Both the position numbers and the translations under genes were made by a program. 32,000 nt of DNA. It comes from Nostoc sp. PCC 7120 = FACHB-418. Its GTDB lineage: Bacteria; Cyanobacteriota; Cyanobacteriia; Cyanobacteriales; Nostocaceae. Below the pieces are notes generated by a model that searched no databases, was not told the DNA's origin, and saw only the letters and a program-made list of their open reading frames with translations. Each line of letters begins with the position of its first letter. The first letter of the stretch is position 1. Where the stretch lies: NCBI RefSeq assembly GCF_000009705.1, contig NC_003272.1, forward strand, positions 3,630,001 to 3,662,000, given 5' to 3'. This document shows positions 2,404 to 31,046 of this stretch, in pieces.

Positions 2404-2432
2404 GTGTTTAGAACAGTTGTAATATCAATTTT

Positions 2433-2460
2433 GTCAGTGGTCAGTGGTCATTAGTCAGTG
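2433..2460. repeat. STRR-type heptamer tandem repeat (GTCAGTG x4, one variant)
   Basis: Direct reading: gtcagtg gtcagtg gtcatta gtcagtg, in the M28/dnaK intergenic region. Confidence 0.85.
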
Positions 2461-2516
2461 GCTTTCATATACTAAGTTCACACACTTTTGGGTTAGTGTA
2501 TTGAAGCTTATGCAAA

Positions 2517-2544
2517 AACAACTAACAATTAACAACTGACAACT
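2517..2544. repeat. STRR-type heptamer tandem repeat (AACAACT-like x4)
   Basis: Direct reading: aacaact aacaatt aacaact gacaact. Confidence 0.85.
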
Positions 2545-2822
2545 GCCACACATAGCAATTAAGGTAAGGGTGGATTTCCCAACTTGAAGATGTAATGAAG
2601 TTCACAGATGAGGCTACAACATTTACAACGGCTAGAACATACTAAGCATCGTCAATGTTATCCTAGTCTTGCAACTAAATCCTCAAGCTATAATTCTTCC
2701 ATTTTTTGCCTTAATGATGACTGTTATAACATTGAGGCAAGTTTACCCTGTAGCACAAAGCTAGAGGTAGTTCTGCCCAATCATAATATATATAGTAAGA
2801 CACAGTAGGAGAAGAGTAAGGC

Positions 2823-9757: not shown

Positions 9758-9805
9758 GACATCTGGATTCTAATAGTCATTTGTTAGTTGTCAGTTGTCA
9801 GATGC

Positions 9806-9838
9806 CAGTAGTCAGTCTTTTTTAGCTACTGACTACTG
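9806..9838 (-). promoter_or_regulatory. Intercistronic stem-loop formed by inverted STRR blocks between lysA and cdaA
   Basis: cagtagtcag (9806-9815) is the exact reverse complement of ctgactactg (9829-9838), giving a 13-nt U-rich loop. The flanking heptamers tgtcagt and ctactga extend the repeat blocks to 9775-9858. Confidence 0.55.
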
Positions 9839-9853
9839 ACTATTGATCACTGA

Positions 9854-11248
9854 CTATTTAAGTCTTTCTGGTAAACAATCTTGCCGAATTAAGTCTTGAT
9901 AAGTTTCGCGTTGCAAAATTAAGTTTGCTTCGCCATTTGCCACTACAACTGCTGCCGGTCGGGGTAGGCGGTTATAGTTAGAGGCCATACTGTAATTGTA
10001 CGCACCAGTTGCCATAACTACGAGAATATCGCCTGGTTCAGTTTTTGGTAGTTGGGCATTTTTAATCAGAATATCCCCTGATTCGCAATGCTTACCCGCA
10101 ATAGTAACTGTTTCTGTATGGGGGGCAGATAATTTATTGGCAATTACTGCCCGATAAACTGACTGGTAAGTAATTGGGCGTGGATTATCAGACATACCCC
10201 CGTCTATGGAAACGTAGGTACGGATTTCCGGTATTGTTTTAGATGAGCCAACAGTGTATGCGGTGATGCAGCTGGTAGCAATGAGCGATCGCCCTGGTTC
10301 AGATAATAGCTTTGGTAAAGGCAAGTTTTCGGCTGCACAAGCTGCTTGCACTACTTCACAAATCGCCTTCACCCACTCATCAATGCTTGGTGGATCGTCT
10401 GATTCTACATATTTAATTCCCAAACCGCCACCAACATTTAATTCGGTGACATTCAAACCATATTTATTCGCATCCCTTAACCACTGCACCATGACAGCAG
10501 CTAAATCTCGATGGGGTTGGCGCTCAAAAATTTGCGAGCCAATATGAGCGTGTAATCCTACGCAGTTGAGATTTGGTTGCTGGCTAACAAACTCAAAAAC
10601 CTCAGCCAAATCGTTGGGGTCAAAGCCAAATTTACTATCCAGGTGTCCTGTGCGAATGTATTCGTGAGTATGACATTCTATACCAGGAGTTAAGCGCAAC
10701 ATGAGCCGGATTGGCTCTTCTGAGTCGGCTAAACTCGCCAATATACGCAATTCATACCAATTATCTGCAACGATTGTTACACCAGATTCAATTGCTAAAA
10801 CCAGTTCCTCACGAGATTTATTATTCCCGTGGAGGTAGATTTTAGCGGGACTCACACCAGCAGCTAGAGCAGTGTAGAGTTCGCCTCCCGAAACTACGTC
10901 AATTCCTAAACCTTCTGAGGCTGCGATCGCACAAACAGCTAAACAATTCCATGCTTTAGAGGCATACAATACCTGAGATTCTCCAGGATAATATTTTTGG
11001 AAACCATCCCGGTATTGCTGACAAGCTGTGCGTAGGGTTTCTTCATCTAATATATATAGAGGTGAACCAAACTGCTCAACTAGAGTTGTGACATCACACC
11101 CACCAATTTCCAGGTTTCCTTGACTGTTAGCTTTAGCAGTTAGAGGTAAAAGTTCCTGGTTGGGAGAAATATTTGTATTTGTGTTGCGCCTTTGAGGTAG
11201 ATACTGAGTACCAGCATCTTGAACCCCAGCCGGGTGAGTCGATACCAT
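9854..11248 (-). CDS. lysA: Diaminopimelate decarboxylase
   Basis: 464 aa. Typical PLP-dependent Orn/DAP/Arg decarboxylase layout (YASKAW, HAHIGSQI, EPGRSL, CESGD). Confidence 0.95.
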   Translation of the reverse strand: MVSTHPAGVQDAGTQYLPQRRNTNTNISPNQELLPLTAKANSQGNLEIGGCDVTTLVEQFGSPLYILDEETLRTACQQYRDGFQKYYPGESQVLYASKAWNCLAVCAIAASEGLGIDVVSGGELYTALAAGVSPAKIYLHGNNKSREELVLAIESGVTIVADNWYELRILASLADSEEPIRLMLRLTPGIECHTHEYIRTGHLDSKFGFDPNDLAEVFEFVSQQPNLNCVGLHAHIGSQIFERQPHRDLAAVMVQWLRDANKYGLNVTELNVGGGLGIKYVESDDPPSIDEWVKAICEVVQAACAAENLPLPKLLSEPGRSLIATSCITAYTVGSSKTIPEIRTYVSIDGGMSDNPRPITYQSVYRAVIANKLSAPHTETVTIAGKHCESGDILIKNAQLPKTEPGDILVVMATGAYNYSMASNYNRLPRPAAVVVANGEANLILQRETYQDLIRQDCLPERLK

Positions 11249-11340: not shown

Positions 11341-11889
11341 GTGATCTCATCAAAATTAAAACTTCAATCACTCACCTCAAAGGATTTAAGTGCAATCCTC
11401 GAACTAGATCAAGCCTGTTTTGGTGGACTTTGGACTATGGAGGGCTACCAAAGAGAGTTGGATAGTCCCAACAGCGATCTACTCGGTCTATTTTCCCCCA
11501 CTTCCTCCATCAAACTTTTGGGTATGGGGTGTTTTTGGTCAATTGTCGGAGAAGCCCACATCACAATTTTGGCTGTTCATCCCCAATATCACCGTCAAGC
11601 TTTAGGACAGGCTTTATTATATTTTCTCTTGAGAACAGCTAGCGATCGCGGCTTAGAAAGAGCCACCCTCGAAGTCCGAGCCTCGAACCTAGCCGCAATA
11701 TCTTTATACCAAAAGTTTGGGTTCCAAACAGCAGGAAGGCGGCGTGCTTATTACCAAGATAATGGTGAAGATGCCCTCATACTCTGGCTTCCAGACTTGC
11801 AATATCCCCAATTTCAAAAGACATTGGCGCACTGGGAAACCATTATCCGAGATGACCTGCAAAAATATTCTTGGTCATTGGTCAGTTGA
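11341..11889 (+). CDS. rimI: GNAT acetyltransferase, ribosomal-protein-alanine N-acetyltransferase type
   Basis: 182 aa with GTG start. GNAT motif A region QYHRQALGQALL...ATLEVRASNLAAISLYQKFGF. The last codons are built from STRR heptamers. Confidence 0.7.
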   Translation: MISSKLKLQSLTSKDLSAILELDQACFGGLWTMEGYQRELDSPNSDLLGLFSPTSSIKLLGMGCFWSIVGEAHITILAVHPQYHRQALGQALLYFLLRTASDRGLERATLEVRASNLAAISLYQKFGFQTAGRRRAYYQDNGEDALILWLPDLQYPQFQKTLAHWETIIRDDLQKYSWSLVS

Positions 11890-11905
11890 CAGTTGTCAGT
11901 TGCCA
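11871..11905. repeat. STRR2-type heptamer tandem repeat (TTGGTCA/GTTGTCA, 5 units)
   Basis: ttggtca ttggtca gttgaca gttgtca gttgcca. The block spans the rimI stop codon (tga at 11887-11889). Confidence 0.85.
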
Positions 11906-12391
11906 TGGGTCAATAGTAATTCTTCTTTGCTCCCCCTGCCCCCTCTGCTCTTCTTACTCCTCCTCCCAAATACACACCCCGACCTAGTTGTCGATATGGA
12001 AAACAACTAAGTTAATGAGAAAATATCTATTTTTCCTGAAATCAAATCATCAGAATATTTAATAGAAGAATATTCTTGCTTTTGAATAACATATCTAACT
12101 AGAGATACTCTTGATTAGAGTAGCCTATCTGTGCTAATAATAAATATTTGTGATCGTTTAATAAAATCACAAATTTAATAATCGTTTGTATTTTATTCAA
12201 GCCCAAAAATGCTGATAAACTCAAACTCCTCAGTAAAGTTGGCAGGGCGACAGTAATAAACAAATAATAATCAAGCCATCAACTTGTGTGATAGCTGTTG
12301 GATGCTGATTATCTTTGGATACAGACATCCAAACTCTTAGCCTGTGCTAAAATCAGCGTACCGGCACGACGCAGGTGATGGGAAAAATGCC

Positions 12392-14950: not shown

Positions 14951-16087
14951 CTATGACTCATATACATCCACTGATTTTGACTGCTTTAAACTATTTTGAG
15001 TTAGATATTTAGCTCTATCCTTTAGAATTTCTACTAATCCATAAATTTCGTCTAGATTTGAAATGGATTTTTTAGCTTCTTTACCATCCACATCAATAAT
15101 GCCGATATATTTTTTACTTGACTTAAACCAAAGTCGGCAAACAGTTTTGGATACCTTATTCTCCATGTTAATGCCAAAATAGTTTTTTGTAGCTCTAAAT
15201 TGAAGTTGGCTAATATCAATAACTTCTCGTAAGATAGCCTTAATAATTAAAAACCCTTCCGTTTCTTCTTCTGTTATAGAAATTTCATTCTCAGATGAGG
15301 AAGAATCTGCTTCTATGTCTACTTCGGTGTCTTGAATAGAAGTAGATTGTGCGCCTGAAGTTATAGTGTCAGGAAGATCAATAGCTGATTTTAATCTATC
15401 TGTGATTCTGTCATTAATAAATTCCTTGAGAGAACGCTTTGTAATTTCTGTAAATTTATTTGTGACTGATACAGTTAATTTTCCTGTATATACTTGGCTG
15501 GCGAAAAATTTAACAAATTCCGGTGACGGTTCAGTAAGCTGTTCTGCCATAAGGCGTTTAATCTCTTTTGTGTAAAGAAGGTTTTTGGCAAAATCTGCCA
15601 TTTGCTCAGGATTAAAGGCTATTTTAGAAAATCGTTTAAGCTCATTCACCATAGATTCATTAAAATCCATCATGTTGAACTCAAAGAATGGTTTCTCATC
15701 CATAACATTAGTTTTCTCTGTATCAGTGTAAAACCTATAGAGAATACCATTAGTTAAGATACCAAACTTAGCTTCTGTAGCATGAAAGTATCTATGTAAT
15801 TGTGAGCTATGTTTTGGATGTTCTAGACTCGCTCCACACCATTTACATTCAATAAGAATGATAGGAACACCATTCATATTAATTGCATAATCTACTTTTT
15901 CTCCTTTTAAACCAGGTACATCAGCCGTAAACTCAGGGCATACTTCTGTTGGATTAAAAACGTTATACCCTAGTGCATTAATAAAAGGCATTACAAAAGC
16001 GTTTTTGGTAGCTTCTTCAGTCAAGACTTGCTCTTTTAGTTTTGGAATTTGCTGAGAAACAGCTTTTATTTGATCAATAAAATCCAT
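14951..16087 (-). CDS. HsdR_N / COG4748-type PD-(D/E)XK nuclease-domain protein (solitary, no adjacent methylase or specificity gene)
   Basis: 378 aa. N-terminal region with D66...E80-C-K82 (VDYAI...ILIECKW) and FGILTNG, as in type I restriction HsdR N-terminal-like domains. C-terminal EGFLIIKAILRE...YFGI...CRLWF module. Strongly AT-rich compared with clpC. Confidence 0.65.
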   Translation of the reverse strand: MDFIDQIKAVSQQIPKLKEQVLTEEATKNAFVMPFINALGYNVFNPTEVCPEFTADVPGLKGEKVDYAINMNGVPIILIECKWCGASLEHPKHSSQLHRYFHATEAKFGILTNGILYRFYTDTEKTNVMDEKPFFEFNMMDFNESMVNELKRFSKIAFNPEQMADFAKNLLYTKEIKRLMAEQLTEPSPEFVKFFASQVYTGKLTVSVTNKFTEITKRSLKEFINDRITDRLKSAIDLPDTITSGAQSTSIQDTEVDIEADSSSSENEISITEEETEGFLIIKAILREVIDISQLQFRATKNYFGINMENKVSKTVCRLWFKSSKKYIGIIDVDGKEAKKSISNLDEIYGLVEILKDRAKYLTQNSLKQSKSVDVYES

Positions 16088-16361
16088 AGTTTTTAGTAGA
16101 TGAAACTAGTTAAAAGGCGAATGCAAGTAACCTATTTTTAATAGCTAAATAACTAAGTAAATTTGCATCCTAAATTACATCATCACCGTAATATTATCTC
16201 TGTGCCACCGAGTTATTACTGTTCTTACACGAAGGTTTTTCTGACAAAAATTTGGTAAAATTACTTACAGAAATAAAACTTATTATTATCCTGTTCAAGA
16301 GTATGAGCTTTTAGTAAAAAATTTTAAGTTGCCTAATCGCAATCTTAAGGACATAAAAACA

Positions 16362-16529
16362 ATGTTGAATTTAGACCTGATTCGGGACACTAAAGTTTAT
16401 CAAGAAGCATTTGAAGAAGGGAAACTACAGGCTAAGTTGAAAATAGTACCAATTTTGCTGGAATTAGGATTAAGTATTCAGCAAATAGCGGAAAGATTAA
16501 AAATAGATACAGATGTAGTCAGAGAATGA
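16362..16529 (+). CDS. Mini-protein resembling the C-terminal helical/HTH tail of Rpn/DUF4351-type proteins
   Basis: ATG at 16362 (the track uses TTG 16329). TKVYQEAFEEGKLQ parallels SPWYQEILREGEARG in the 6103-6972 protein. Followed by the HTH-like LGLSIQQIAERLKID. Confidence 0.4.
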   Translation: MLNLDLIRDTKVYQEAFEEGKLQAKLKIVPILLELGLSIQQIAERLKIDTDVVRE

Positions 16530-16551
16530 GCAAGGCGCTAGTATTTTTTAG

Positions 16552-16779
16552 ATGACTAATAACTGGGAATTTACAGAAGTATTGATTGATCTGATGTTAT
16601 CGCCTCCATACATTCTTGTATTACTATGCGACAGTGAGGGAAACTGTCAAATGTATGATCCGAAACAGGGTGATAAGGTTGTATTTTCTAGTAATAATTA
16701 TGAAGCTGCTAAGTTATGGTTACTAGAAGATGAGTATGAACAAGTTGAAGGTAGGCTATTAGTTACGGAATTATTTTAA
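16552..16779 (+). CDS. Hypothetical 75-aa protein, second gene of a small pair
   Basis: ATG 22 nt after the preceding stop, same strand. No recognisable motif. Confidence 0.4.
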   Translation: MTNNWEFTEVLIDLMLSPPYILVLLCDSEGNCQMYDPKQGDKVVFSSNNYEAAKLWLLEDEYEQVEGRLLVTELF

Positions 16780-16831
16780 CTGGAGCAATGGATTATGGTG
16801 TGCGATCGCTTTTAGGGTAGCTGACTGTAGA

Positions 16832-16915
16832 TATCGCTGTTAGTGGAGTAGTGCGATCGCACGAAAAATTTTGATACGCTACGATCAACACAAGTCGGCA
16901 ATTACTGTTAATTTA
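16832..16915 (+). repeat. 84-bp cassette-boundary repeat, copy A
   Basis: tatcgctgttagtggagtagtgcgatcgcacgaaaaattttgatacgctacgatcaacacaagtcggcaattactgttaattta. Ungapped alignment to copies B and C gives 5 and 8 mismatches by hand. Confidence 0.9.
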
Positions 16916-16955
16916 AAAAGTAGCAATAATTTCCAAAAATGAGGTCAGATAAATT

Positions 16956-17273
16956 ATGACTAATACAAAACCTGTTCGTCTTCGTCAACTAGGGAGAATA
17001 TTTCCAGAATTTACAATTCCACCGGAAGAATTAGCTAGACGGGAAGCTGAAAAAAATACTCGTGGACAAAAAGCGCGTGTTGTTTTTGATCAAGTTTTTC
17101 CACAATTAATAGATGAACATTACAACTGGTTTATTGTGATTGAACCAAACAGTGGTGATTATTTTATTGATACAGATGAAAATATGGCTGACAAAAAAGC
17201 ACGCCAAAAATATCCTACTGGTTGGCTTGTTACTTTCCGTCTCAATGAAACAGGTACTTGTGGACGGATATGA
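16956..17273 (+). CDS. Hypothetical 105-aa protein, translationally coupled upstream partner of the retropepsin-like gene
   Basis: ATG 16956 with GAGG upstream. The stop TGA overlaps the ATG of the next gene (ATGA at 17270-17273). Contains WFIVIEPNSGDYFIDTDENMADKKARQKYP. Confidence 0.55.
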   Translation: MTNTKPVRLRQLGRIFPEFTIPPEELARREAEKNTRGQKARVVFDQVFPQLIDEHYNWFIVIEPNSGDYFIDTDENMADKKARQKYPTGWLVTFRLNETGTCGRI

Positions 17274-17638
17274 TTTCAGGGAGGTTTGGTGAAATTGGGG
17301 AGCTAATTTTTGATATGGAGGTTATTTCCAGTGATGGAGATAGTTATCCTATTGAAGTTTTATTAGACACAGGATTTACATCTGGTTGGTTGGCACTTGA
17401 TATACAAGATGCTGAAAGTTTAGGATGGCCATTAATTCAACGCGATAGCATTATGCAAATGGCCAGAGGTGAAGCTTTCTTTAATATATATGAAGGTAAA
17501 GTGGTATTAGATGGACAGGAGTACATTATTTCTGTCTTAGCTGCTGATGGACTACCTGAGCCTCTTTTGGGGTTACAGTGGTTAAAAATGTTGCCTTTAT
17601 CTGTGAATTTTCTCGATGGAATATTAACATTGGGGTGA
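17270..17638 (+). CDS. Retropepsin-like (clan AA) single-domain aspartic protease homolog
   Basis: LLDTGFTSG catalytic-type D-T-G (D33 from ATG 17270) and a late LLGLQWL (hydrophobic-hydrophobic-Gly) motif. About 122 aa, compatible with a homodimeric retropepsin fold. The track start at TTG 17258 is less likely than the ATGA overlap. Confidence 0.65.
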   Translation: MISGRFGEIGELIFDMEVISSDGDSYPIEVLLDTGFTSGWLALDIQDAESLGWPLIQRDSIMQMARGEAFFNIYEGKVVLDGQEYIISVLAADGLPEPLLGLQWLKMLPLSVNFLDGILTLG

Positions 17639-17688
17639 AGATAGGTTAATCAGTTTTGAATAGAGTTTGTGTGTTAGTTAAGTATAGC

Positions 17689-17772
17689 TATCGCTGTTAG
17701 TGGAGTAGTGCGATCGCGCGCGACATTTTGATAAGCTACGATCAACACAAGTCGGCAATTACTGTTAATTTA
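17689..17772 (+). repeat. 84-bp cassette-boundary repeat, copy B
   Basis: tatcgctgttagtggagtagtgcgatcgcgcgcgacattttgataagctacgatcaacacaagtcggcaattactgttaattta. Its last base is the A of the ATG at 17772. Confidence 0.9.
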
Positions 17773-17990
17773 TGGAAACATCAAAATTTACTACTCAGAG
17801 AGATAACACACAACTAGAAACAATAGACATTGCTGTAAAACCTCAAAGCATAAACCGACGCGAGTTTATGAAATTGCCATTAGAAGAAAGGCGGCGCATA
17901 CTAGCAGAACAAGCCGAGCAAATGTTACTACATTACCAACAAGATAAAGAGTGGCAAGAATTAGAGACAGGAGATTTGCTTGATTACTAG
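17772..17990 (+). CDS. Putative antitoxin of the MazF-type toxin (family not recognised)
   Basis: 72-aa acidic ORF overlapping the toxin start by 11 nt. Contains KLPLEERRRILAEQAEQM. An internal ATG (M33) is an alternative start. Confidence 0.55.
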   Translation: METSKFTTQRDNTQLETIDIAVKPQSINRREFMKLPLEERRRILAEQAEQMLLHYQQDKEWQELETGDLLDY

Positions 17991-18342
17991 CTCTCCTACC
18001 GCTAGACGGGGCGATATTTGGCTTGCTAATTTTGACCCAACACTAGGAGCAGAAATCAAAAAAATCAGACCTGCTGTGGTAGTAAGTTCTGATGGTGTTG
18101 GTAAATTGCCAATTAAATTAATTGCGCCTATCACAGATTGGAAAGAATACTATGCTGGTAATATATGGCACGTCAAACTTGAACCAGACACCAGTAATCA
18201 TTTAACCAAAACTTCTGCTGTTGATGTTTTACAATTGCGCGGTATGGATGTGCAAAGATTCATCCGTAAAATAGGGGTTTGTTCGCCTGAAGTCATGGAA
18301 GATATTGCTATGGCTATTGCTGCGATAGTCGAGTATTTCTAA
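17980..18342 (+). CDS. Type II toxin-antitoxin system PemK/MazF-family endoribonuclease toxin
   Basis: 120 aa. RGDIWLANFDPTLGAEIKKIRPAVVVSSD is the classic MazF/PemK N-terminal signature. TTG start. Confidence 0.85.
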   Translation: MITSSPTARRGDIWLANFDPTLGAEIKKIRPAVVVSSDGVGKLPIKLIAPITDWKEYYAGNIWHVKLEPDTSNHLTKTSAVDVLQLRGMDVQRFIRKIGVCSPEVMEDIAMAIAAIVEYF

Positions 18343-18400
18343 TAAATCATTTGATAATCACACAAGCACTAAATTGGCAGCAGTATAAACCCATTGTAGG

Positions 18401-18484
18401 TATCGTTGTTAGTGGGGTAGTGCGATCGCACGCAACATTTTGATAAGCTACGATAAGCACAAGTCGGCGATTACTGTTAATTTA
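18401..18484 (+). repeat. 84-bp cassette-boundary repeat, copy C
   Basis: tatcgttgttagtggggtagtgcgatcgcacgcaacattttgataagctacgataagcacaagtcggcgattactgttaattta. No ORF follows it. Confidence 0.9.
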
Positions 18485-18519
18485 TTGATATTCTCAAACC
18501 TGATGCTATTGCTTTAAGT

Positions 18520-18550
18520 GGTAGAGAATTAATTCTTCCCTACCCTTTTT
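18520..18550 (+). terminator. Rho-independent terminator closing the cassette string
   Basis: ggtagagaa-ttaa-ttcttccctacc stem (one mismatch) followed by cttttt. Confidence 0.6.
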
Positions 18551-18602
18551 GATATTTGTTGAATGTGTGACGCGAAACCTGATTAAGGCGAATTTTGAGT
18601 AT

Positions 18603-19358
18603 TTATTCCTCCACAGGTGTGAGTTTTACAGGATACAATGGCTCAGATCCGTTTAACTGCCAAATTCTAAATACCAATGCAGCCGCTACAGTTAGCCATA
18701 TACAAGAAAAAGATAAAATCATTCCCGCTACATGGTTAGTTTGCCAATAAATTGCTGTCACAACTAAAGCAGATAACCAGGGGCCTAAAATTACTACAGG
18801 AACAGCCGCGCCTAGTCTTCGTTCTACAGTAAAAATTGTATTCCAAGTATCCCCTAAAGCCAGATGTACTACAAACATAATGAAGGGTAGTACTAAAAAT
18901 TGATGATTCATTTGCTGCCAAACTAACACAGAAGAAATTACTCGCAAAACTGCAATGATCATCCAGACTATGGGAAATGCTAAAGGTGGAGGAGACCATT
19001 TTGGTCTGATTACTTGGTCATAAGTCTGACGAGAACGGGTATTATCTAGAAGAGAGAAAATTCGGGAACGGATACTTAATAGAGTAAAAAATAATGCTGT
19101 CAATAAAGTGCTAAACCAATTGGGAAAAGAAGAATTGCTATCTATCAATATGATTAATTTTTCCATTCCTAACAACGCAAGAATCATGACTGCTATTTGT
19201 AAGATAGTCCCTAGTTTATAAACTAAAACAGCTTTGATATCTAGTTCTTGTGTAGTGGTTATTGATGTATTTAGCGATTGTTGTTGATTACCAGTTTTTA
19301 CACCCATTACTGTGTTGACAAACTGTTCCAGTATTCCACTATTTTTGGACTTATTCAT
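18603..19358 (-). CDS. TspO/MBR-like tryptophan-rich membrane protein with extra N-terminal membrane region
   Basis: The C-terminal ~150 aa carry RPKWSPPPLAFPIVWMII, GDTWNTIF and multiple Trp-containing TM helices. ATG at 19358 (MNKSKNSG) is preferred over the track start at 19394. Confidence 0.55.
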   Translation of the reverse strand: MNKSKNSGILEQFVNTVMGVKTGNQQQSLNTSITTTQELDIKAVLVYKLGTILQIAVMILALLGMEKLIILIDSNSSFPNWFSTLLTALFFTLLSIRSRIFSLLDNTRSRQTYDQVIRPKWSPPPLAFPIVWMIIAVLRVISSVLVWQQMNHQFLVLPFIMFVVHLALGDTWNTIFTVERRLGAAVPVVILGPWLSALVVTAIYWQTNHVAGMILSFSCIWLTVAAALVFRIWQLNGSEPLYPVKLTPVEE

Positions 19359-19894: not shown

Positions 19895-20257
19895 ATGATG
19901 ATGATGATGACTGAATCTATGACCGCCGAAATGCAAGCCTGTATGAAAGCTTGTATGGATTGTCATAAAATGTGCATGGAAACCATGACTTACTGCATGA
20001 GCAAGGGCGGTATGCAGATGGACATGAGCATGATGGGTATGATGCGCGACTGCTCGGAAATGTGCATGATGTGCGTGAATATGATGATGGGTGGTTCCGA
20101 ATTTATGGGACGCACTTGTATGTTGTGTGCGGAAATGTGCGATCGCACTGCTATGGCTTGCGAACAAATGAGCGGTGATCAAATGATGATGGACTGTGCA
20201 ATGGCTTGTCGCAAATGTGCAGAAGCTTGTAGATCCATGCAAATGATGCCTGCTTAA
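19895..20257 (+). CDS. DUF326-type cysteine-rich four-helix-bundle metal-binding protein, extreme Met-rich variant
   Basis: 120 aa. Repeated CxxxC-type helices (CMKACMDC, CSEMCMMC, CMLCAEMC, CRKCAEAC) as in DUF326 proteins. 38 Met and 16 Cys counted from the translation. GAGG lies 8 nt upstream of the ATG. Confidence 0.8.
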   Translation: MMMMMTESMTAEMQACMKACMDCHKMCMETMTYCMSKGGMQMDMSMMGMMRDCSEMCMMCVNMMMGGSEFMGRTCMLCAEMCDRTAMACEQMSGDQMMMDCAMACRKCAEACRSMQMMPA

Positions 20258-20458: not shown

Positions 20459-21256
20459 ATGAAACATTTAAAATCCCGTTCCCAAGACTTGCGGAGCTTG
20501 TTTGAGAACAATATCACAATTGAATATGTAGCTGAAGCCTTGAAAGCTGTACCAGCAGAGGCGGAAGTAGTAGAGGTGTTGGGGTGGATGCGATCGCAAG
20601 ATTTTGATGTTGTTGGGGTGGAAACGGGTGATACAATAACTGGCTATATTGAACGCGCTAGTTTAGTGCAGGTTAAATCTGGTAAGTGCGGTGACTATCA
20701 GCGAGTGTTTCATCCTAAGGAACTGATTGCGATTTCTACGCCACTGATGAAGTTACTACCCATCTTGCAACAAAATCCGCGTTTGTTTGTTCTCGACTGC
20801 AATCAGGTGAGTGGGATTATTACCTGTGGTGACTTGCAGAAAGCGCCTGTGAGAATGTTGCTCTTTGGTTTAGTTACTTTGCTGGAGATGAATCTGTTGA
20901 GGTTGGTAAGGCTTTACTATCCCCAAGACGCTTGGCAGAAAGTTCTCAAGTCTGATCGCCTAGAAGTTGCGCGCAGGTTATGGCGTGAGAGTCAAGAAAG
21001 AAACGAAGCCACAGATTTACTAGATTACCTGCAATTTTGTGACAAGCGAGAGTTAGTCTTACATCAACCAGAACTGCTGGAACAACTAGAACTAAAATCA
21101 AAACGCGCTGGTGAACGGTTTTTAAAATCTGCTGAACAATTACGCAACCGATTAGCCCACGCCCAAAGTTTAGTTAGTGGTTCTTCTTGGAATGATTTAA
21201 TTTCTTTAGCAGAAGCGATGGAAAAACTCCTAATTCGCTGTGAAGAAATAGAGTGA
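20459..21256 (+). CDS. Predicted CBS-pair domain fused to a C-terminal HEPN-like (Rx4H) helical domain
   Basis: N-terminal ~130 aa have two CBS-like units (DFDVVGVETGDTITGYIERASL; LFVLDCNQVSGIITCGDLQKAPVR). The C-terminal helical half carries R229-N-R-L-A-H234, matching the HEPN Rx4-6H motif with a polar residue after R. Confidence 0.5.
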   Translation: MKHLKSRSQDLRSLFENNITIEYVAEALKAVPAEAEVVEVLGWMRSQDFDVVGVETGDTITGYIERASLVQVKSGKCGDYQRVFHPKELIAISTPLMKLLPILQQNPRLFVLDCNQVSGIITCGDLQKAPVRMLLFGLVTLLEMNLLRLVRLYYPQDAWQKVLKSDRLEVARRLWRESQERNEATDLLDYLQFCDKRELVLHQPELLEQLELKSKRAGERFLKSAEQLRNRLAHAQSLVSGSSWNDLISLAEAMEKLLIRCEEIE

Positions 21257-23426: not shown

Positions 23427-23461
23427 TTTAGCTAATAGAGAACGTCACGTTAATTTTAATT

Positions 23462-23695
23462 TTAGGGGTGTAAGGGTGTGGGGGTGTAAGGGTATAGGGG
23501 AAATAAATATTTCTTCATCCCCTTACATTATAAGGATGGCAGGCTTGTTAACTAATATGGCTGGATGAGAGGATGTAGGGTATAAGTGAAAAAAATCATA
23601 CGTATTATCGATATCCGAGCCAGTCCGTAGATTATCTACACCCCCACACCCCCACACCCCCACACCCCCACACCCCTAAACCCTTACACCCCTAA
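23462..23695. mobile_element. MITE-like 234-bp element with 16-bp perfect terminal inverted repeats and internal G/C-rich oligomer repeats
   Basis: ttaggggtgtaagggt (23462-23477) is the exact reverse complement of acccttacacccctaa (23680-23695). The right arm carries the octamer acaccccc x4 (23638-23669). No ORF inside. Confidence 0.5.
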
Positions 23696-24478: not shown

Positions 24479-24498
24479 CTCTTCTCCACTCCCTAATT

Positions 24499-24547
24499 AG
24501 TCAACAGTCAATAGTCAACGGTCAACAGTCAACAGTCAACAGTTAAA
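24499..24547. repeat. STRR3 heptamer tandem repeat (CAACAGT register, 7 units)
   Basis: agtcaac agtcaat agtcaac ggtcaac agtcaac agtcaac agttaaa. Confidence 0.9.
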
Positions 24548-24577
24548 CGCTAAAAATGAAGGTTTTGCACTATGGAC

Positions 24578-24605
24578 TAATGACCAATGACCAATGACCA
24601 ATGAC
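24578..24605. repeat. STRR2-type heptamer tandem repeat (reverse complement of TTGGTCA; 4 units)
   Basis: taatgac caatgac caatgac caatgac. Confidence 0.9.
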
Positions 24606-24807
24606 TATCCCACTATGTCAGTTGTCGAACAGGCACTCATAACTTACCACTGCTCTAAGTCTTACCCATAAAATTACTTCAGTAATAATTCTTGTTTAAT
24701 GCGTATCTAGAGCGACACTCTTTTTAAATTTCTTTAAAGAAAAATTTCCCCAGTCAAAATTGACAATCGGAATGTATTCTTTGTATCTTCAGACAAAATG
24801 AAAACTC

Positions 24808-30794: not shown

Positions 30795-30893
30795 ATTAAA
30801 AAGCTTTCTTCGTATTCGGCTAATTGCTGACGATATGGTTACTTTGCTGGGTAATAGGTAATTGTTTTTTACTATTATTTATGGCGCTACGCG

Positions 30894-30912
30894 TGTCAGT
30901 TGTCAGTTGTTG
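30894..30912. repeat. STRR-type heptamers (TGTCAGT x2 plus a partial unit)
   Basis: Direct reading. Inverted relative to the 31018-31038 block. Confidence 0.75.
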
Positions 30913-31017
30913 AAAGGATATAGTTTAATACCCCATCCCAAGAGTGGGTGGTTTGTAGGCGTTTTCTTGAAAAGTTGCTCCTCTTGGGTAGAACCCAAGA
31001 CCGCACTTTTCGCTTTG

Positions 31018-31038
31018 CTACTGACTACTGACTACTGA
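31018..31038. repeat. STRR-type heptamers (CTACTGA x3)
   Basis: Direct reading. actgactactgac is a 12/13 reverse-complement match to gtcagttgtcagt at 30896-30908. Confidence 0.75.
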
Positions 31039-31046
31039 CAAACACT

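What the first reader, a model, noticed from the sequence alone, without database searches (positions are those of the whole stretch)
16832..18484. Three near-identical 84-bp direct repeats partition a string of two-gene cassettes
Seen directly:
- Ungapped 84-bp copies lie at 16832-16915, 17689-17772 and 18401-18484. Hand alignment gives 5, 7 and 8 pairwise mismatches, roughly 90-94 percent identity.
- Each copy contains the 12-bp palindrome GTGCGATCGCAC (degraded in copy B) and ends with ATTACTGTTAATTTA.
- The 773-bp and 628-bp intervals each hold exactly one self-contained two-gene module. These are orf105 plus the retropepsin-like gene, and the antitoxin-like gene plus mazF.
- A third small gene pair precedes copy A, and an intrinsic terminator follows copy C.
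- Copy B runs right up to the ATG at 17772.

The repeat is far better conserved than the surrounding intergenic DNA. The architecture recalls chromosomal integron cassette arrays, in which TA cassettes are common and attC sites within an array are highly similar. However, the repeat lacks attC-type terminal symmetry and no integrase is present in the window.

Possible roles are a cassette recombination or insertion site, a shared promoter or 5' leader, an RNA-processing site on a polycistronic transcript (a MazF RNase is encoded here), or a tandem sRNA family. I know of no described element matching this.
Basis: partly seen in the sequence, partly recalled or inferred. Interest (0 to 1): 0.8.

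Follow-up and report, generated by a model that had tools for sequence, protein, structure and literature searches.

The report
Shared leader repeat heading toxin-antitoxin-like modules
A ~98-base intergenic segment, originally the upstream region of a MazE-like/MazF toxin-antitoxin operon, sits in front of three neighbouring two-gene modules downstream of clpC in this Anabaena/Nostoc genome; it probably acts as a shared promoter/leader, and comparison with relatives shows that recombination between its copies adds, removes and reorders modules, so this is an interesting local curiosity but not an integron or a new class of element.

Summary
Three direct copies differ by 5, 7 and 8 mismatches over 84 nt, and stay in register over 98 nt.

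The repeat (R) is not a dispersed repeat, tRNA, Rfam RNA, MITE or attC site. No recombinase is nearby.

The window matches Anabaena/Nostoc sp. PCC 7120. In nine related Nostocaceae, R-like sequence was found only in the variable interval downstream of clpC. It always has the orientation of the genes that follow. It precedes a two-gene module or the relic of one, from five unrelated module families.

In more distant Nostoc, only the HIP1 octamer plus the 3' half survives, mainly directly upstream of the MazE-like antitoxin gene. I take that to be its origin.

Module content and order differ between relatives:
- A. subtropica has a B-left/C-right hybrid copy and lacks mazEF.
- Anabaena CCY 9910 has the reciprocal C-left/B-right hybrid followed by a 65-nt antitoxin relic.

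These are the two expected products of unequal homologous recombination between copies.

Best reading: R is a duplicated promoter/5'-leader segment that also supplies homology for module shuffling. The recombination role has comparative support. The promoter role is inferred only. Interest is moderate to low.

The parts
16818..16915 (+). Repeat copy A (R_A). It lies 39 nt after the orf75 stop and 40 nt before the orf105 ATG.
   Evidence: nhmmer E 2e-31.
17639..17772 (+). Repeat copy B (R_B). The 98-nt core is 17675-17772. A ~36-nt 5' extension (GGTTAATCAGTTTTGA...GTGTTAG) is shared with copies in PCC 7524, L021 and the Trichormus MAG. The last base is the A of the antitoxin ATG.
18387..18484 (+). 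Repeat copy C (R_C). It lies 44 nt after the mazF stop and no gene follows it in this genome. The orthologous copy in A. subtropica precedes a 90-aa/121-aa module.
16329..16779 (+). Module 1. orf66 (16329-16529) is a fragment resembling the C-terminal tail of an Rpn-family nuclease. orf75 (16552-16779) is conserved at the start of the array in PCC 7524, L021, FACHB-280 and TCL26-01.
16956..17638 (+). Module 2. It comprises orf105 (16956-17273) and a 122-aa clan-AA aspartic-protease-like gene (17270-17638), with an ATGA start/stop overlap.
17772..18342 (+). Module 3. It comprises a 72-aa MazE-like antitoxin (17772-17990) and a 120-aa PemK/MazF toxin (17980-18342).
16872..16880 (+). Extended -10-like motif P1 (TGnTAnnnT; TGATACGCT here, TGATAAGCT at 17729-17737 and 18441-18449). 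The predicted TSS lies about 7 nt downstream, near 16887, 17744 and 18456. This is inferred, not shown.
   Evidence: Three of four natural variants of the hexamer keep TAnnnT.
16906..16914 (+). Second extended -10-like motif P2 (TGTTAATTT; also at 17763-17771 and 18475-18483) at the 3' edge of the repeat. This is inferred.
16851..16862 (.). HIP1-containing 12-bp palindrome GTGCGATCGCAC (also at 18420-18431; degraded at 17708-17719). The distance from the HIP1 octamer to the TAAGCT hexamer is a constant 14 nt in the copies that have both.
18485..18513 (+). A 29-nt relic of the leader of a deleted 90-aa/121-aa module. It is shared with A. subtropica, which carries about 790 extra bp at this point.
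18520..18551 (+). Terminator-like hairpin GGTAGAGAATTAATTCTTCCCTACC followed by CTTTTTG. It is conserved after the last module in A. subtropica, so it is the terminal terminator of the array.
   Evidence: Not called by the consensus scan.

Best explanation
R is the upstream promoter/5'-leader segment of the MazE-like/MazF operon. In the PCC 7120 / PCC 7524 / Trichormus clade it has been copied in front of neighbouring two-gene, toxin-antitoxin-like modules, in a hypervariable array between clpC and tspO.

R has three parts:
- a 5' part (TGTAGGTATCGCTGTTAGTGGRGTAGTGCGATCGCAC);
- a variable 5-6-nt spacer;
- a 3' part (ATTTTGATAAGCTACGATCAACACAAGTCGGCAATTACTGTTAATTTA).

Proposed working:
1. The 3' part supplies each module with a promoter, probably the extended -10-like TGATAAGCT. 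It also supplies an AT-rich leader without a Shine-Dalgarno sequence, which runs to the start codon. This step is inferred.
2. The roughly 100-135 nt of near-identity between copies is used by ordinary homologous (RecA-type) unequal recombination, either between chromosome copies or with incoming DNA. This duplicates, deletes and reorders whole modules. This step is shown comparatively, by reciprocal hybrid copies.
3. Copy C in this genome is an orphan. The module it once preceded has been deleted, leaving R next to the terminal terminator of the array.
For: **Position and orientation**
- All 12 full or half copies in 6 genomes, plus 4 diverged copies in 3 more distant Nostoc, lie in the orientation of the downstream genes. 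Each precedes a module or a module relic.
- The modules belong to five families: mazEF-like, orf105/aspartic protease, 90-aa/121-aa, DUF6888/DUF6887 and vapBC-like.
- In 5 genomes the last base of R is the A of the antitoxin ATG.

**Deep conservation of the gene-proximal half only**
- In FACHB-280, TCL26-01 and HK-01, only the 3' part (preceded by HIP1, which TCL26-01 lacks) is recognisable upstream of the antitoxin, at 76-88% identity. The 5' part is not found there.
- FACHB-280 also has HIP1 plus the core upstream of orf105. A weaker resemblance survives in Anabaenopsis.
- The truncated copies in CCY 9910 and the Trichormus MAG keep exactly the stretch from TTTGATAAGCT onward.
- Natural variants of the TAAGCT hexamer (TACGCT, TAATCT, TAAGTT) keep TAnnnT.

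**Recombination between copies**
- A. subtropica lacks mazEF. Its single R has the B-type left flank and the C-type right flank.
- In CCY 9910 the R after mazF has the C-type left spacer and 5' SNPs, a B-type 3' part, and then a 65-nt relic of the antitoxin 5' end.
- These are the reciprocal deletion and duplication products of an R_B x R_C crossover.
- The mazEF and orf105 modules are in opposite order in PCC 7120 versus FACHB-280 and the Trichormus MAG.

**Restriction to this locus**
- The only real matches in the genome-collection scan are at this locus, and the metagenome scan gave only chance matches.
- There are no matches in plasmids or viral contigs.
- A profile search of 214 kb of held loci finds only these copies.
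Against: **No transcription data**
- I could not reach any transcription data. The PCC 7120 TSS paper is not held, and the sRNA table gives only coordinates that I cannot map to the window.

**Weak promoter evidence**
- The sigma-70 consensus scan finds no promoter in R, and there is no convincing -35 element.
- TGNTANNNT is a weak motif that occurs about 45 times per strand in the window.
- The TG of the extended -10 is not conserved in the distant orthologues.

**Unexplained 5' part**
- The promoter model does not explain the 5' part of R. That part is well conserved within the clade.

**Noisy hybrid inference**
- The hybrid-copy argument rests mainly on flanks. The internal diagnostic SNPs are noisy because the copies come from different species.

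**Other breakpoints are not crossovers within R**
- These include the intragenic deletions in the protease gene and the replacement of the 3' half of R plus the orf105 start in the Trichormus MAG. They look like ordinary decay.

**Copy number not checked genome-wide**
- Copy number elsewhere in the PCC 7120 chromosome could not be checked directly.
- The source region appears to be masked in the genome collection.
- PCC 7524, which has an exact match to my scan pattern, was also not returned.
Confidence: 0.55

Rival explanations
1. R is a dedicated site-specific recombination site, in an integron-like, Xer/dif-like or other system. A recombinase encoded elsewhere in the genome excises and inserts R-bearing circular modules.
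For: - The mazEF block in the Trichormus MAG is bounded by a 3' half-copy on the left and a 5' half-copy on the right, as if a circle had been opened inside R. Both half-copy breakpoints fall in the variable spacer.
- The order of adjacent modules is swapped between genomes.
- R precedes five unrelated module families.
- R-bounded modules differ between close relatives.
Against: **No recombinase or site structure**
- There is no integrase or transposase in the 32-kb window, or in the ~10-kb flanks of the relatives.
- R has no inverted symmetry and no stable ssDNA fold. z-scores run from -0.86 to +0.92.
- The GTTAGTG and GTTAATT strings do not fit GTTRRRY.
- The putative crossover spacer is the most variable part of R.

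**Junctions and context**
- The two half-copy junctions are 7-8 nt apart and abut unrelated DNA: a doc gene fragment on one side and a 95-nt filler on the other.
- In distant Nostoc, R-like sequence lies mainly upstream of the antitoxin and is not detected at the other module junctions.
- The element is confined to one locus in a small clade.
Confidence: 0.1
2. R acts at the RNA level. It could be an inter-module processing or stability element on a polycistronic transcript (for example a MazF or RNase E target), a translational leader structure, or a small RNA family. In the last case, copy C plus the terminator would give a transcript of roughly 65-95 nt.
For: - All copies are co-oriented with the genes, and R runs up to a start codon.
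- Copy C is followed 36 nt later by a terminator-like hairpin, an arrangement that sRNA-prediction pipelines pick up.
- A MazF RNase is encoded in the array.
Against: - There is no Rfam match, even at E<=10.
- RNA fold z-scores run from -0.89 to +1.28 on both strands.
- The alignment fold has a covariation term of -0.12, and 0 of 23 pairs show compensatory change. Power is low at about 90% identity.
- The repeat sequence was not found in the part of the supplementary material of PMC4734099 that is held as text. That file is stored truncated and its sRNA table lists coordinates rather than sequences, so this says little.
- The copy-C/terminator juxtaposition is a secondary result of a deletion. 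A. subtropica has a module between the two.
Confidence: 0.12
3. R has no function of its own. The copies are passive by-products of segmental duplication and rearrangement of the mazEF upstream region in a decaying toxin-antitoxin island. They stay similar only because they are young or homogenised by gene conversion.
For: - Many modules in the array are visibly decaying: a truncated protease gene, doc and Rpn fragments, an orphan antitoxin and relics.
- Between close relatives, R (about 91%) is no better conserved than the flanking DNA (92%).
- Copy C precedes nothing.
Against: - Copies in PCC 7524 are 82-94% identical to those in PCC 7120, although TspO is only 88% identical at the protein level.
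- No copy has an indel across 98 nt, apart from 1-nt indels at the edges of the PCC 7524 copies.
- The HIP1-to-hexamer spacing is fixed at 14 nt even in distant orthologues.
- Truncated copies retain exactly the gene-proximal part.
Confidence: 0.2

Closest known systems
Promoter/operator regions of type II toxin-antitoxin operons
   Same: - R lies directly upstream of the antitoxin gene of a MazE-like/MazF pair.
- It contains a palindrome and -10-like motifs.
- It is conserved together with the operon in distant Nostoc.
   Different: - The same segment is also found in front of four unrelated module families, and once in front of nothing.
- The palindrome is the generic HIP1 motif.
- Autoregulation and the transcription start are untested.
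Integron cassette arrays (attC sites, IntI)
   Same: - Small, often toxin-antitoxin-type, co-oriented modules are separated by similar ~100-nt repeats.
- Module content and order differ between relatives.
   Different: - There is no IntI, no attC inverted-repeat architecture or ssDNA hairpin, and no GTTRRRY core.
- R sits at the 5' end of modules and probably carries the promoter, whereas integron cassettes are mostly promoterless with attC at the 3' end.
- The evidence points to homologous rather than site-specific recombination.
Toxin-antitoxin module flanked by identical 152-bp direct repeats in Microcystis aeruginosa PCC 7806 (PMC7935541)
   Same: A cyanobacterial type II toxin-antitoxin pair is bracketed by direct repeats of about 100-150 bp in the same orientation.
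   Different: - The Microcystis repeats are identical and contain a 16-bp inverted repeat.
- They lie 147 bp upstream and 120 bp downstream of the genes.
- No array, promoter role or comparative recombination evidence was described there.
NsiR1 tandem array in Nostoc sp. PCC 7120 (Ionescu et al. 2010, cited in PMC4734099)
   Same: It is a family of direct repeats in the same organism, and each repeat carries its own promoter.
   Different: - The NsiR1 repeats are contiguous, each encodes a ~60-nt sRNA with a terminator, and they lie upstream of hetF.
- R copies are 700-860 bp apart with protein genes between them.
- R does not match the Rfam NsiR1 model or any other family.
pdif modules on Acinetobacter plasmids (from my own knowledge)
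   Same: Small modules, often toxin-antitoxin pairs, are bounded by short conserved sites and found in different contexts.
   Different: - pdif sites are 28-bp XerC/XerD sites that flank a module in inverted orientation.
- R copies are about 98 nt, direct, and show no Xer-type dyad.

Membership tests
Integron (attC cassette array) | IntI tyrosine recombinase with attI and Pc adjacent to the array | tested here: not met
   Pfam and NCBIfam scans of window ORFs, and precomputed Pfam for flanking genes in 9 related loci, show no integrase or recombinase.
Integron (attC cassette array) | attC has imperfect inverted repeats (R''-L''...L'-R') that fold as an ssDNA hairpin | tested here: not met
   No internal inverted repeat spans R. 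ssDNA fold z-scores run from -0.86 to +0.92 on both strands.
Integron (attC cassette array) | Conserved GTTRRRY core at the cassette junction, and the site lies at the 3' end of each cassette | tested here: not met
   GTTAGTG and GTTAATT do not fit GTTRRRY (read). In HK-01 and TCL26-01, R-like sequence is found only upstream of mazEF and not after it.
MITE / small transposable element | Terminal inverted repeats, target-site duplication, and many dispersed copies | tested here: not met
   There are no TIRs. No TSD is seen where copy A is absent in A. subtropica. All real matches to the two public-collection scan patterns, and all profile hits in held loci, lie in this one locus.
Known RNA families (Rfam 15, including cyanobacterial sRNAs) | Covariance-model match at or near the gathering score | tested here: not met
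   There are 0 hits at gathering threshold in the window. Only two chance-level hits (E about 7) appear in 16000-19000.
Structured cis-RNA / sRNA (novel) | Thermodynamically unusual fold and compensatory base changes | tested here: not met
   z-scores run from -0.89 to +1.28. 0 of 23 pairs have compensatory change. Power is low because the copies are about 90% identical.
Type II toxin-antitoxin promoter/operator | Located immediately upstream of the antitoxin gene and co-conserved with the operon | tested here: met
   R_B ends at the antitoxin ATG. The 3' part is 76-88% conserved upstream of the antitoxin in FACHB-280, TCL26-01 and HK-01.
Type II toxin-antitoxin promoter/operator | Recognisable sigma-70 promoter and a mapped TSS | tested here: inconclusive
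   The consensus scan is negative. Two extended -10-like motifs occur per copy, but the motif is common. TSS data could not be reached.
Type II toxin-antitoxin promoter/operator | Binding of the antitoxin or the toxin-antitoxin complex to an operator palindrome (autoregulation) | not testable with these tools
   The only palindrome is HIP1-based. EMSA or reporter assays are needed.
HIP1 (highly iterated palindrome, GCGATCGC) | The octamer GCGATCGC, hyper-abundant genome-wide in cyanobacteria | tested here: met
   It occurs 35 times in the window against 0.22 expected. The 12-mer GTGCGATCGCAC also occurs at 20137, outside the repeat.
tRNA-derived attachment site of an integrative element | The repeat corresponds to the 3' part of a tRNA or tmRNA gene | tested here: not met
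   ARAGORN finds no tRNA or tmRNA in the window.

The most novel reading that the evidence does not exclude
R may be the linker of a recombinase-less cassette system. It would be a portable ~100-nt head that carries a promoter for whatever two-gene module follows it, and that also serves as the recombination site. Whole R-plus-module units would be excised, duplicated, reordered and exchanged between Nostocaceae, through homologous recombination among the many chromosome copies or with transformed DNA. That would make it a functional analogue of an integron, built on homology instead of an integrase and maintained by selection at a fixed chromosomal hotspot next to clpC.
Probability: 0.15. Interest if true: 0.65.

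Novelty: new member of a known kind. Interest (0 to 1): 0.33.

Why it matters
- The work defines a compact variable hotspot in the model cyanobacterium Anabaena/Nostoc sp. PCC 7120. Toxin-antitoxin-like modules are gained, lost and reordered there.
- It identifies the ~98-nt segment at which that happens.
- It gives a concrete case where one regulatory segment precedes five unrelated module families. This suggests co-regulation of neighbouring modules.
- It provides reciprocal natural products of unequal recombination between ~100-nt repeats.
- It also has a practical consequence: short-read assemblies break inside copy B.
- It does not reveal a new class of mobile element or RNA.

Tried and rejected
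**Known element classes**
- tRNA/tmRNA-derived att site: no tRNA found.
- Rfam families at gathering threshold and at E<=10: nothing real.
- Structured RNA or ssDNA: folds on both strands are not better than shuffles, and there is no covariation.
- Sigma-70 consensus promoter or terminator scan inside R: negative.
- MITE or TSD test, using the A. subtropica locus that lacks copy A: no clean boundaries.

**Searches for further copies**
- Genome-collection scan with the 3' pattern: only two real hits, both syntenic. The source region, and apparently PCC 7524, are not returned, so this scan undercounts.
- Metagenome scan with the 5' pattern: two chance hits that are not the repeat.
- Plasmid blastn of the whole array: only coding-sequence matches.
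- Viral scan with the core: none.

**Literature**
- The published Anabaena mazEaFa system is a different locus, with 80-aa and 146-aa proteins.
- The PCC 7120 TSS paper is not held.
- The predicted-sRNA table gives only chromosome coordinates, which I could not map to the window.
- Guessed locus tags returned nothing.

**Other ideas**
- The 8-bp inverted pair ATTTTGAT/ATCAAAAT brackets the antitoxin start in copy B. It is not kept in distant orthologues, so I rejected it as an operator or hairpin.
- PADLOC gave no defence-system assignment for the module proteins.
Full report
**1. The observation**

- The repeat finder returns a single three-copy direct-repeat family at 16818-16915, 17675-17772 and 18387-18484.
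Over 98 nt identity is 85-90%.
- The 60 nt before and 40 nt after the copies are at random-level identity, 25-38%.
- All copies end in ATTACTGTTAATTTA. Copy B ends on the A of the ATG at 17772.
- The two intervals hold these modules:
  - orf105 plus a 122-aa clan-AA aspartic-protease-like gene;
  - a 72-aa weak MazE-like gene plus a clear PemK/MazF gene.
- The 12-bp palindrome is built on HIP1 (GCGATCGC). HIP1 occurs 35 times in this window against 0.2 expected, so it is not a special feature of the repeat.
- The terminator after copy C is an imperfect hairpin at 18520-18544 followed by CTTTTTG. The consensus scan missed it.

**2. What the repeat is not**

- The window has no tRNA or tmRNA.
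- There is no Rfam hit at gathering threshold. Only two chance-level hits appear at E<=10.
- Single-strand RNA and DNA folds of each copy, on either strand, are no better than shuffled sequence. z-scores run from -0.9 to +1.3.
- An alignment fold of nine copies has no compensatory pair.
- No inverted repeat spans the element.
- No integrase, transposase or other recombinase is encoded in the 32-kb window, or in the flanks of any related locus I fetched.

**3. Source and distribution**

- The antitoxin protein is 100% identical to one named from Anabaena sp. FACHB-709.
  - That protein is carried on a contig of 6,413,771 bp. From my own knowledge this is the chromosome length of Anabaena/Nostoc sp. 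PCC 7120.
  - Many assemblies carry the identical locus.
- The published mazEaFa system of this organism is a different locus.
- An exact-pattern scan of one genome per species returned only two real hits, in Anabaena subtropica FACHB-260 and a Trichormus MAG. Both lie in the same interval between clpC and tspO.
- That scan undercounts. It returned neither the source nor PCC 7524, although PCC 7524 has an exact match to the pattern.
- A metagenome scan gave two chance hits. Plasmids and viral contigs gave nothing.
- I fetched syntenic loci through TspO and antitoxin homologues:
  - Anabaena CCY 9910, Trichormus M33_DOE_039, Nostoc PCC 7524 and a JGI metagenome contig;
  - Nostoc FACHB-280, TCL26-01 and HK-01, then NIES-25, Anabaenopsis elenkinii and Microcoleus FACHB-831.
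- BLASTN and an nhmmer profile over 214 kb find significant copies only inside the array downstream of clpC.

**4. Anatomy across genomes**

- The alignment of 12 copies shows three parts:
  - a conserved 5' part (TGTAGGTATCGCTGTTAGTGGRGTAGTGCGATCGCAC);
  - a variable 5-6-nt spacer;
  - a conserved 3' part (ATTTTGATAAGCTACGATCAACACAAGTCGGCAATTACTGTTAATTTA).
- Some copies (B-type) share a further ~36-nt 5' extension.
- Every copy is co-oriented with the genes downstream and precedes a module or the relic of one:
  - mazEF-like (PCC 7120, CCY 9910, Trichormus MAG, PCC 7524, L021);
  - orf105/protease (PCC 7120);
  - DUF6888/DUF6887 (PCC 7524);
  - a vapBC-like pair (Trichormus MAG);
  - a 90-aa/121-aa pair (A. 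subtropica).
- In the more distant FACHB-280, TCL26-01 and HK-01, the 3' part (preceded by HIP1, except in TCL26-01) is recognisable directly upstream of the antitoxin ATG, at 76-88% identity.
  - The core ATAAGCTACGATMAACACAAG is nearly invariant.
  - HIP1 sits a fixed 14 nt before TAAGCT wherever both are present.
  - The 5' part of R is not found in these genomes.
- FACHB-280 also has HIP1 plus the core upstream of orf105, and a shorter R-like stretch upstream of DUF6888.
- In Anabaenopsis the core is only faintly recognisable. In Microcoleus and NIES-25 it is gone.
- I therefore read R as the native upstream region of this mazEF-like operon. It has spread to neighbouring module heads, and it is most uniform in the PCC 7120 / PCC 7524 / Trichormus clade.

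**5. Variation between relatives and recombination**

The interval between clpC and tspO is hypervariable. R marks a repeat copy in the maps below.

| Genome | Order of modules |
|---|---|
| PCC 7120 | HSDR_N(-), orf66/orf75, R, orf105/protease, R, mazEF, R |
| FACHB-280 | HSDR_N(-), orf75, DUF6888/7, R, mazEF, partial R, orf105/protease, 90/121 |
| Trichormus MAG | two other genes, doc fragment, half R, mazEF, half R, truncated orf105/protease, R, vapBC-like |
| CCY 9910 | the same two genes, doc fragment, half R, mazEF, R |
| PCC 7524 | PIN, F6, orf75, Mrr, R, DUF6888/7, R, antitoxin only, F6, 90-aa |
| Trichormus M33 | DUF6888/7 only, no R |

- The order of the mazEF and orf105 modules is therefore inverted between PCC 7120 and FACHB-280 or the Trichormus MAG.
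- Two copies are hybrids:
  - A. subtropica lacks mazEF. Its single R has the B-type left side, following a truncated protease gene with the GTGTTAG extension and TAGCTATCGCTG. It has the C-type right flank, the 29 nt shared with PCC 7120 copy C.
  - In CCY 9910 the copy after mazF has the C-type left spacer and 5' SNPs but a B-type 3' part. A degraded 65-nt antitoxin 5' end follows, and then tspO.
- These are the reciprocal deletion and duplication products expected from unequal crossing-over between R_B and R_C.
- PCC 7120 copy C is an orphan. A. subtropica carries about 790 bp (the 90-aa/121-aa pair) starting 29 nt after the equivalent copy. The terminator-like hairpin lies after that module.
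- Other breakpoints look like ordinary decay rather than events at a fixed site. They include:
  - deletions inside the protease gene;
  - replacement of the 3' half of R plus 13 codons of orf105 by unrelated DNA in the Trichormus MAG;
  - the doc fragment abutting the half copy.

**6. Mechanism**

- Shown by comparison: R copies are crossover substrates, and whole modules come and go at them.
- Inferred: R carries the promoter and leader of the following module. The arguments are:
  - its position and orientation;
  - survival of only the gene-proximal part in distant genomes and in truncated copies, which begin exactly at TTTGATAAGCT;
  - the fixed HIP1-to-hexamer spacing;
  - an extended -10-like TGATAAGCT whose natural variants keep TAnnnT.
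- A second such motif (TGTTAATTT) abuts the ATG.
- Weaknesses of the promoter reading:
  - there is no -35 element and the consensus scan is negative;
  - the motif is common, at 45 per strand;
  - the TG is not conserved in distant orthologues;
  - no TSS data could be reached.
- The annotated antitoxin start is probably real, because ATGGAA is invariant in seven homologues. However, the first 32 codons lack the third-position substitution bias that the last 40 show. A start at Met33 with a longer leader therefore cannot be excluded.

**7. Comparison with known systems, and novelty**

- The array resembles an integron only superficially. The membership features are not met: IntI, attC symmetry and hairpin, the GTTRRRY core, and a site at the 3' end of each cassette.
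- The closest precedents are:
  - ordinary type II toxin-antitoxin promoter/operator regions;
  - the report of a Microcystis toxin-antitoxin module bracketed by identical 152-bp direct repeats;
  - for repeats that each carry a promoter in the same organism, the NsiR1 array, which differs in being contiguous and encoding an sRNA.
- I found no description of this particular repeat.
- I rate it a new member of a known kind: a locus-specific duplicated regulatory segment that doubles as recombination homology in a toxin-antitoxin island.
- The most novel reading still open is a selected, recombinase-less 'portable head' cassette system. I give it about 15%.

Noticed in passing
window 19895-20257 (+), overlapping ORFs on both strands: A 120-aa Met/Cys-rich ORF (MMMMMTESMTAEMQACMKACMDCHKMC...). 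A homologue in locus L029 carries Pfam Csp (PF03860, copper storage protein). The antisense frame gives a spurious His-rich 130-aa ORF. The 12-mer GTGCGATCGCAC also lies inside this gene, at 20137.
   Followed up: no
window 16329-16529 (+): orf66 matches only the last ~40 positions of the Rpn-family recombination-promoting nuclease model (TIGR01784, E 2e-5, below cut-off). It is a small stand-alone C-terminal-tail ORF or a gene fragment at the head of the array.
   Followed up: partly
window 14951-16087 (-); L019 12903-14144; L034 6563-7798: A 378-aa HSDR_N (PD-(D/E)XK-type) protein sits between clpC and the array in PCC 7120, FACHB-280 and TCL26-01. In PCC 7524 and HK-01 a ~412-aa Mrr_cat nuclease-fold protein occupies the corresponding place.
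   Followed up: no
window 20459-21256 (+): A 265-aa protein with weak similarity to a CBS-domain anti-phage protein (NF053863, E 8e-6) and to a Swt1-like HEPN domain (E 6e-3). It may be a defence-related gene just beyond tspO.
   Followed up: no
window 23461-23500 / 23641-23695: A large imperfect inverted repeat made of G-rich heptamer-type units (GGGGTGT / ACACCCC), 140-156 nt apart, lying between two minus-strand genes.
   Followed up: no
window 2419-2556, 9773-9860, 11871-11921, 24494-24608, 30886-31042: Intergenic runs of 7-nt tandem units (GTCAGTT / TGACTAC and relatives) occur at several places on both strands. They resemble the short tandemly repeated repetitive sequences known from heterocystous cyanobacteria (my own knowledge).
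   Followed up: no
L006-L008, L029, L030 (Logan contigs): Several independent short-read assemblies of this organism begin 29-30 nt upstream of the antitoxin ATG, inside repeat copy B. The repeat evidently breaks assemblies.
   Followed up: partly
window 17772-17867: The first 32 codons of the antitoxin ORF show substitutions spread evenly over codon positions among four Nostoc orthologues. The last 40 codons show the usual coding bias. The ATGGAA start is nevertheless invariant in seven homologues, and some genomes annotate only the 40-aa version.
   Followed up: partly
L033 7915-7980 (Nostoc sp. TCL26-01): Upstream of the antitoxin, the ~20-nt core is present twice in direct repeat (GTAAGCTACGCTAACACAAAA, then 9 nt, then ATAAGCTACGATCAACACAAG). 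The first copy occupies the place where other genomes have HIP1.
   Followed up: no
L011 2575-2690 (-) and L014 11568-11702: A truncated Fic/Doc-type toxin gene fragment abuts the half repeat upstream of mazEF in the Trichormus MAG and in Anabaena CCY 9910. This is another decayed toxin-antitoxin module in the same array.
   Followed up: partly
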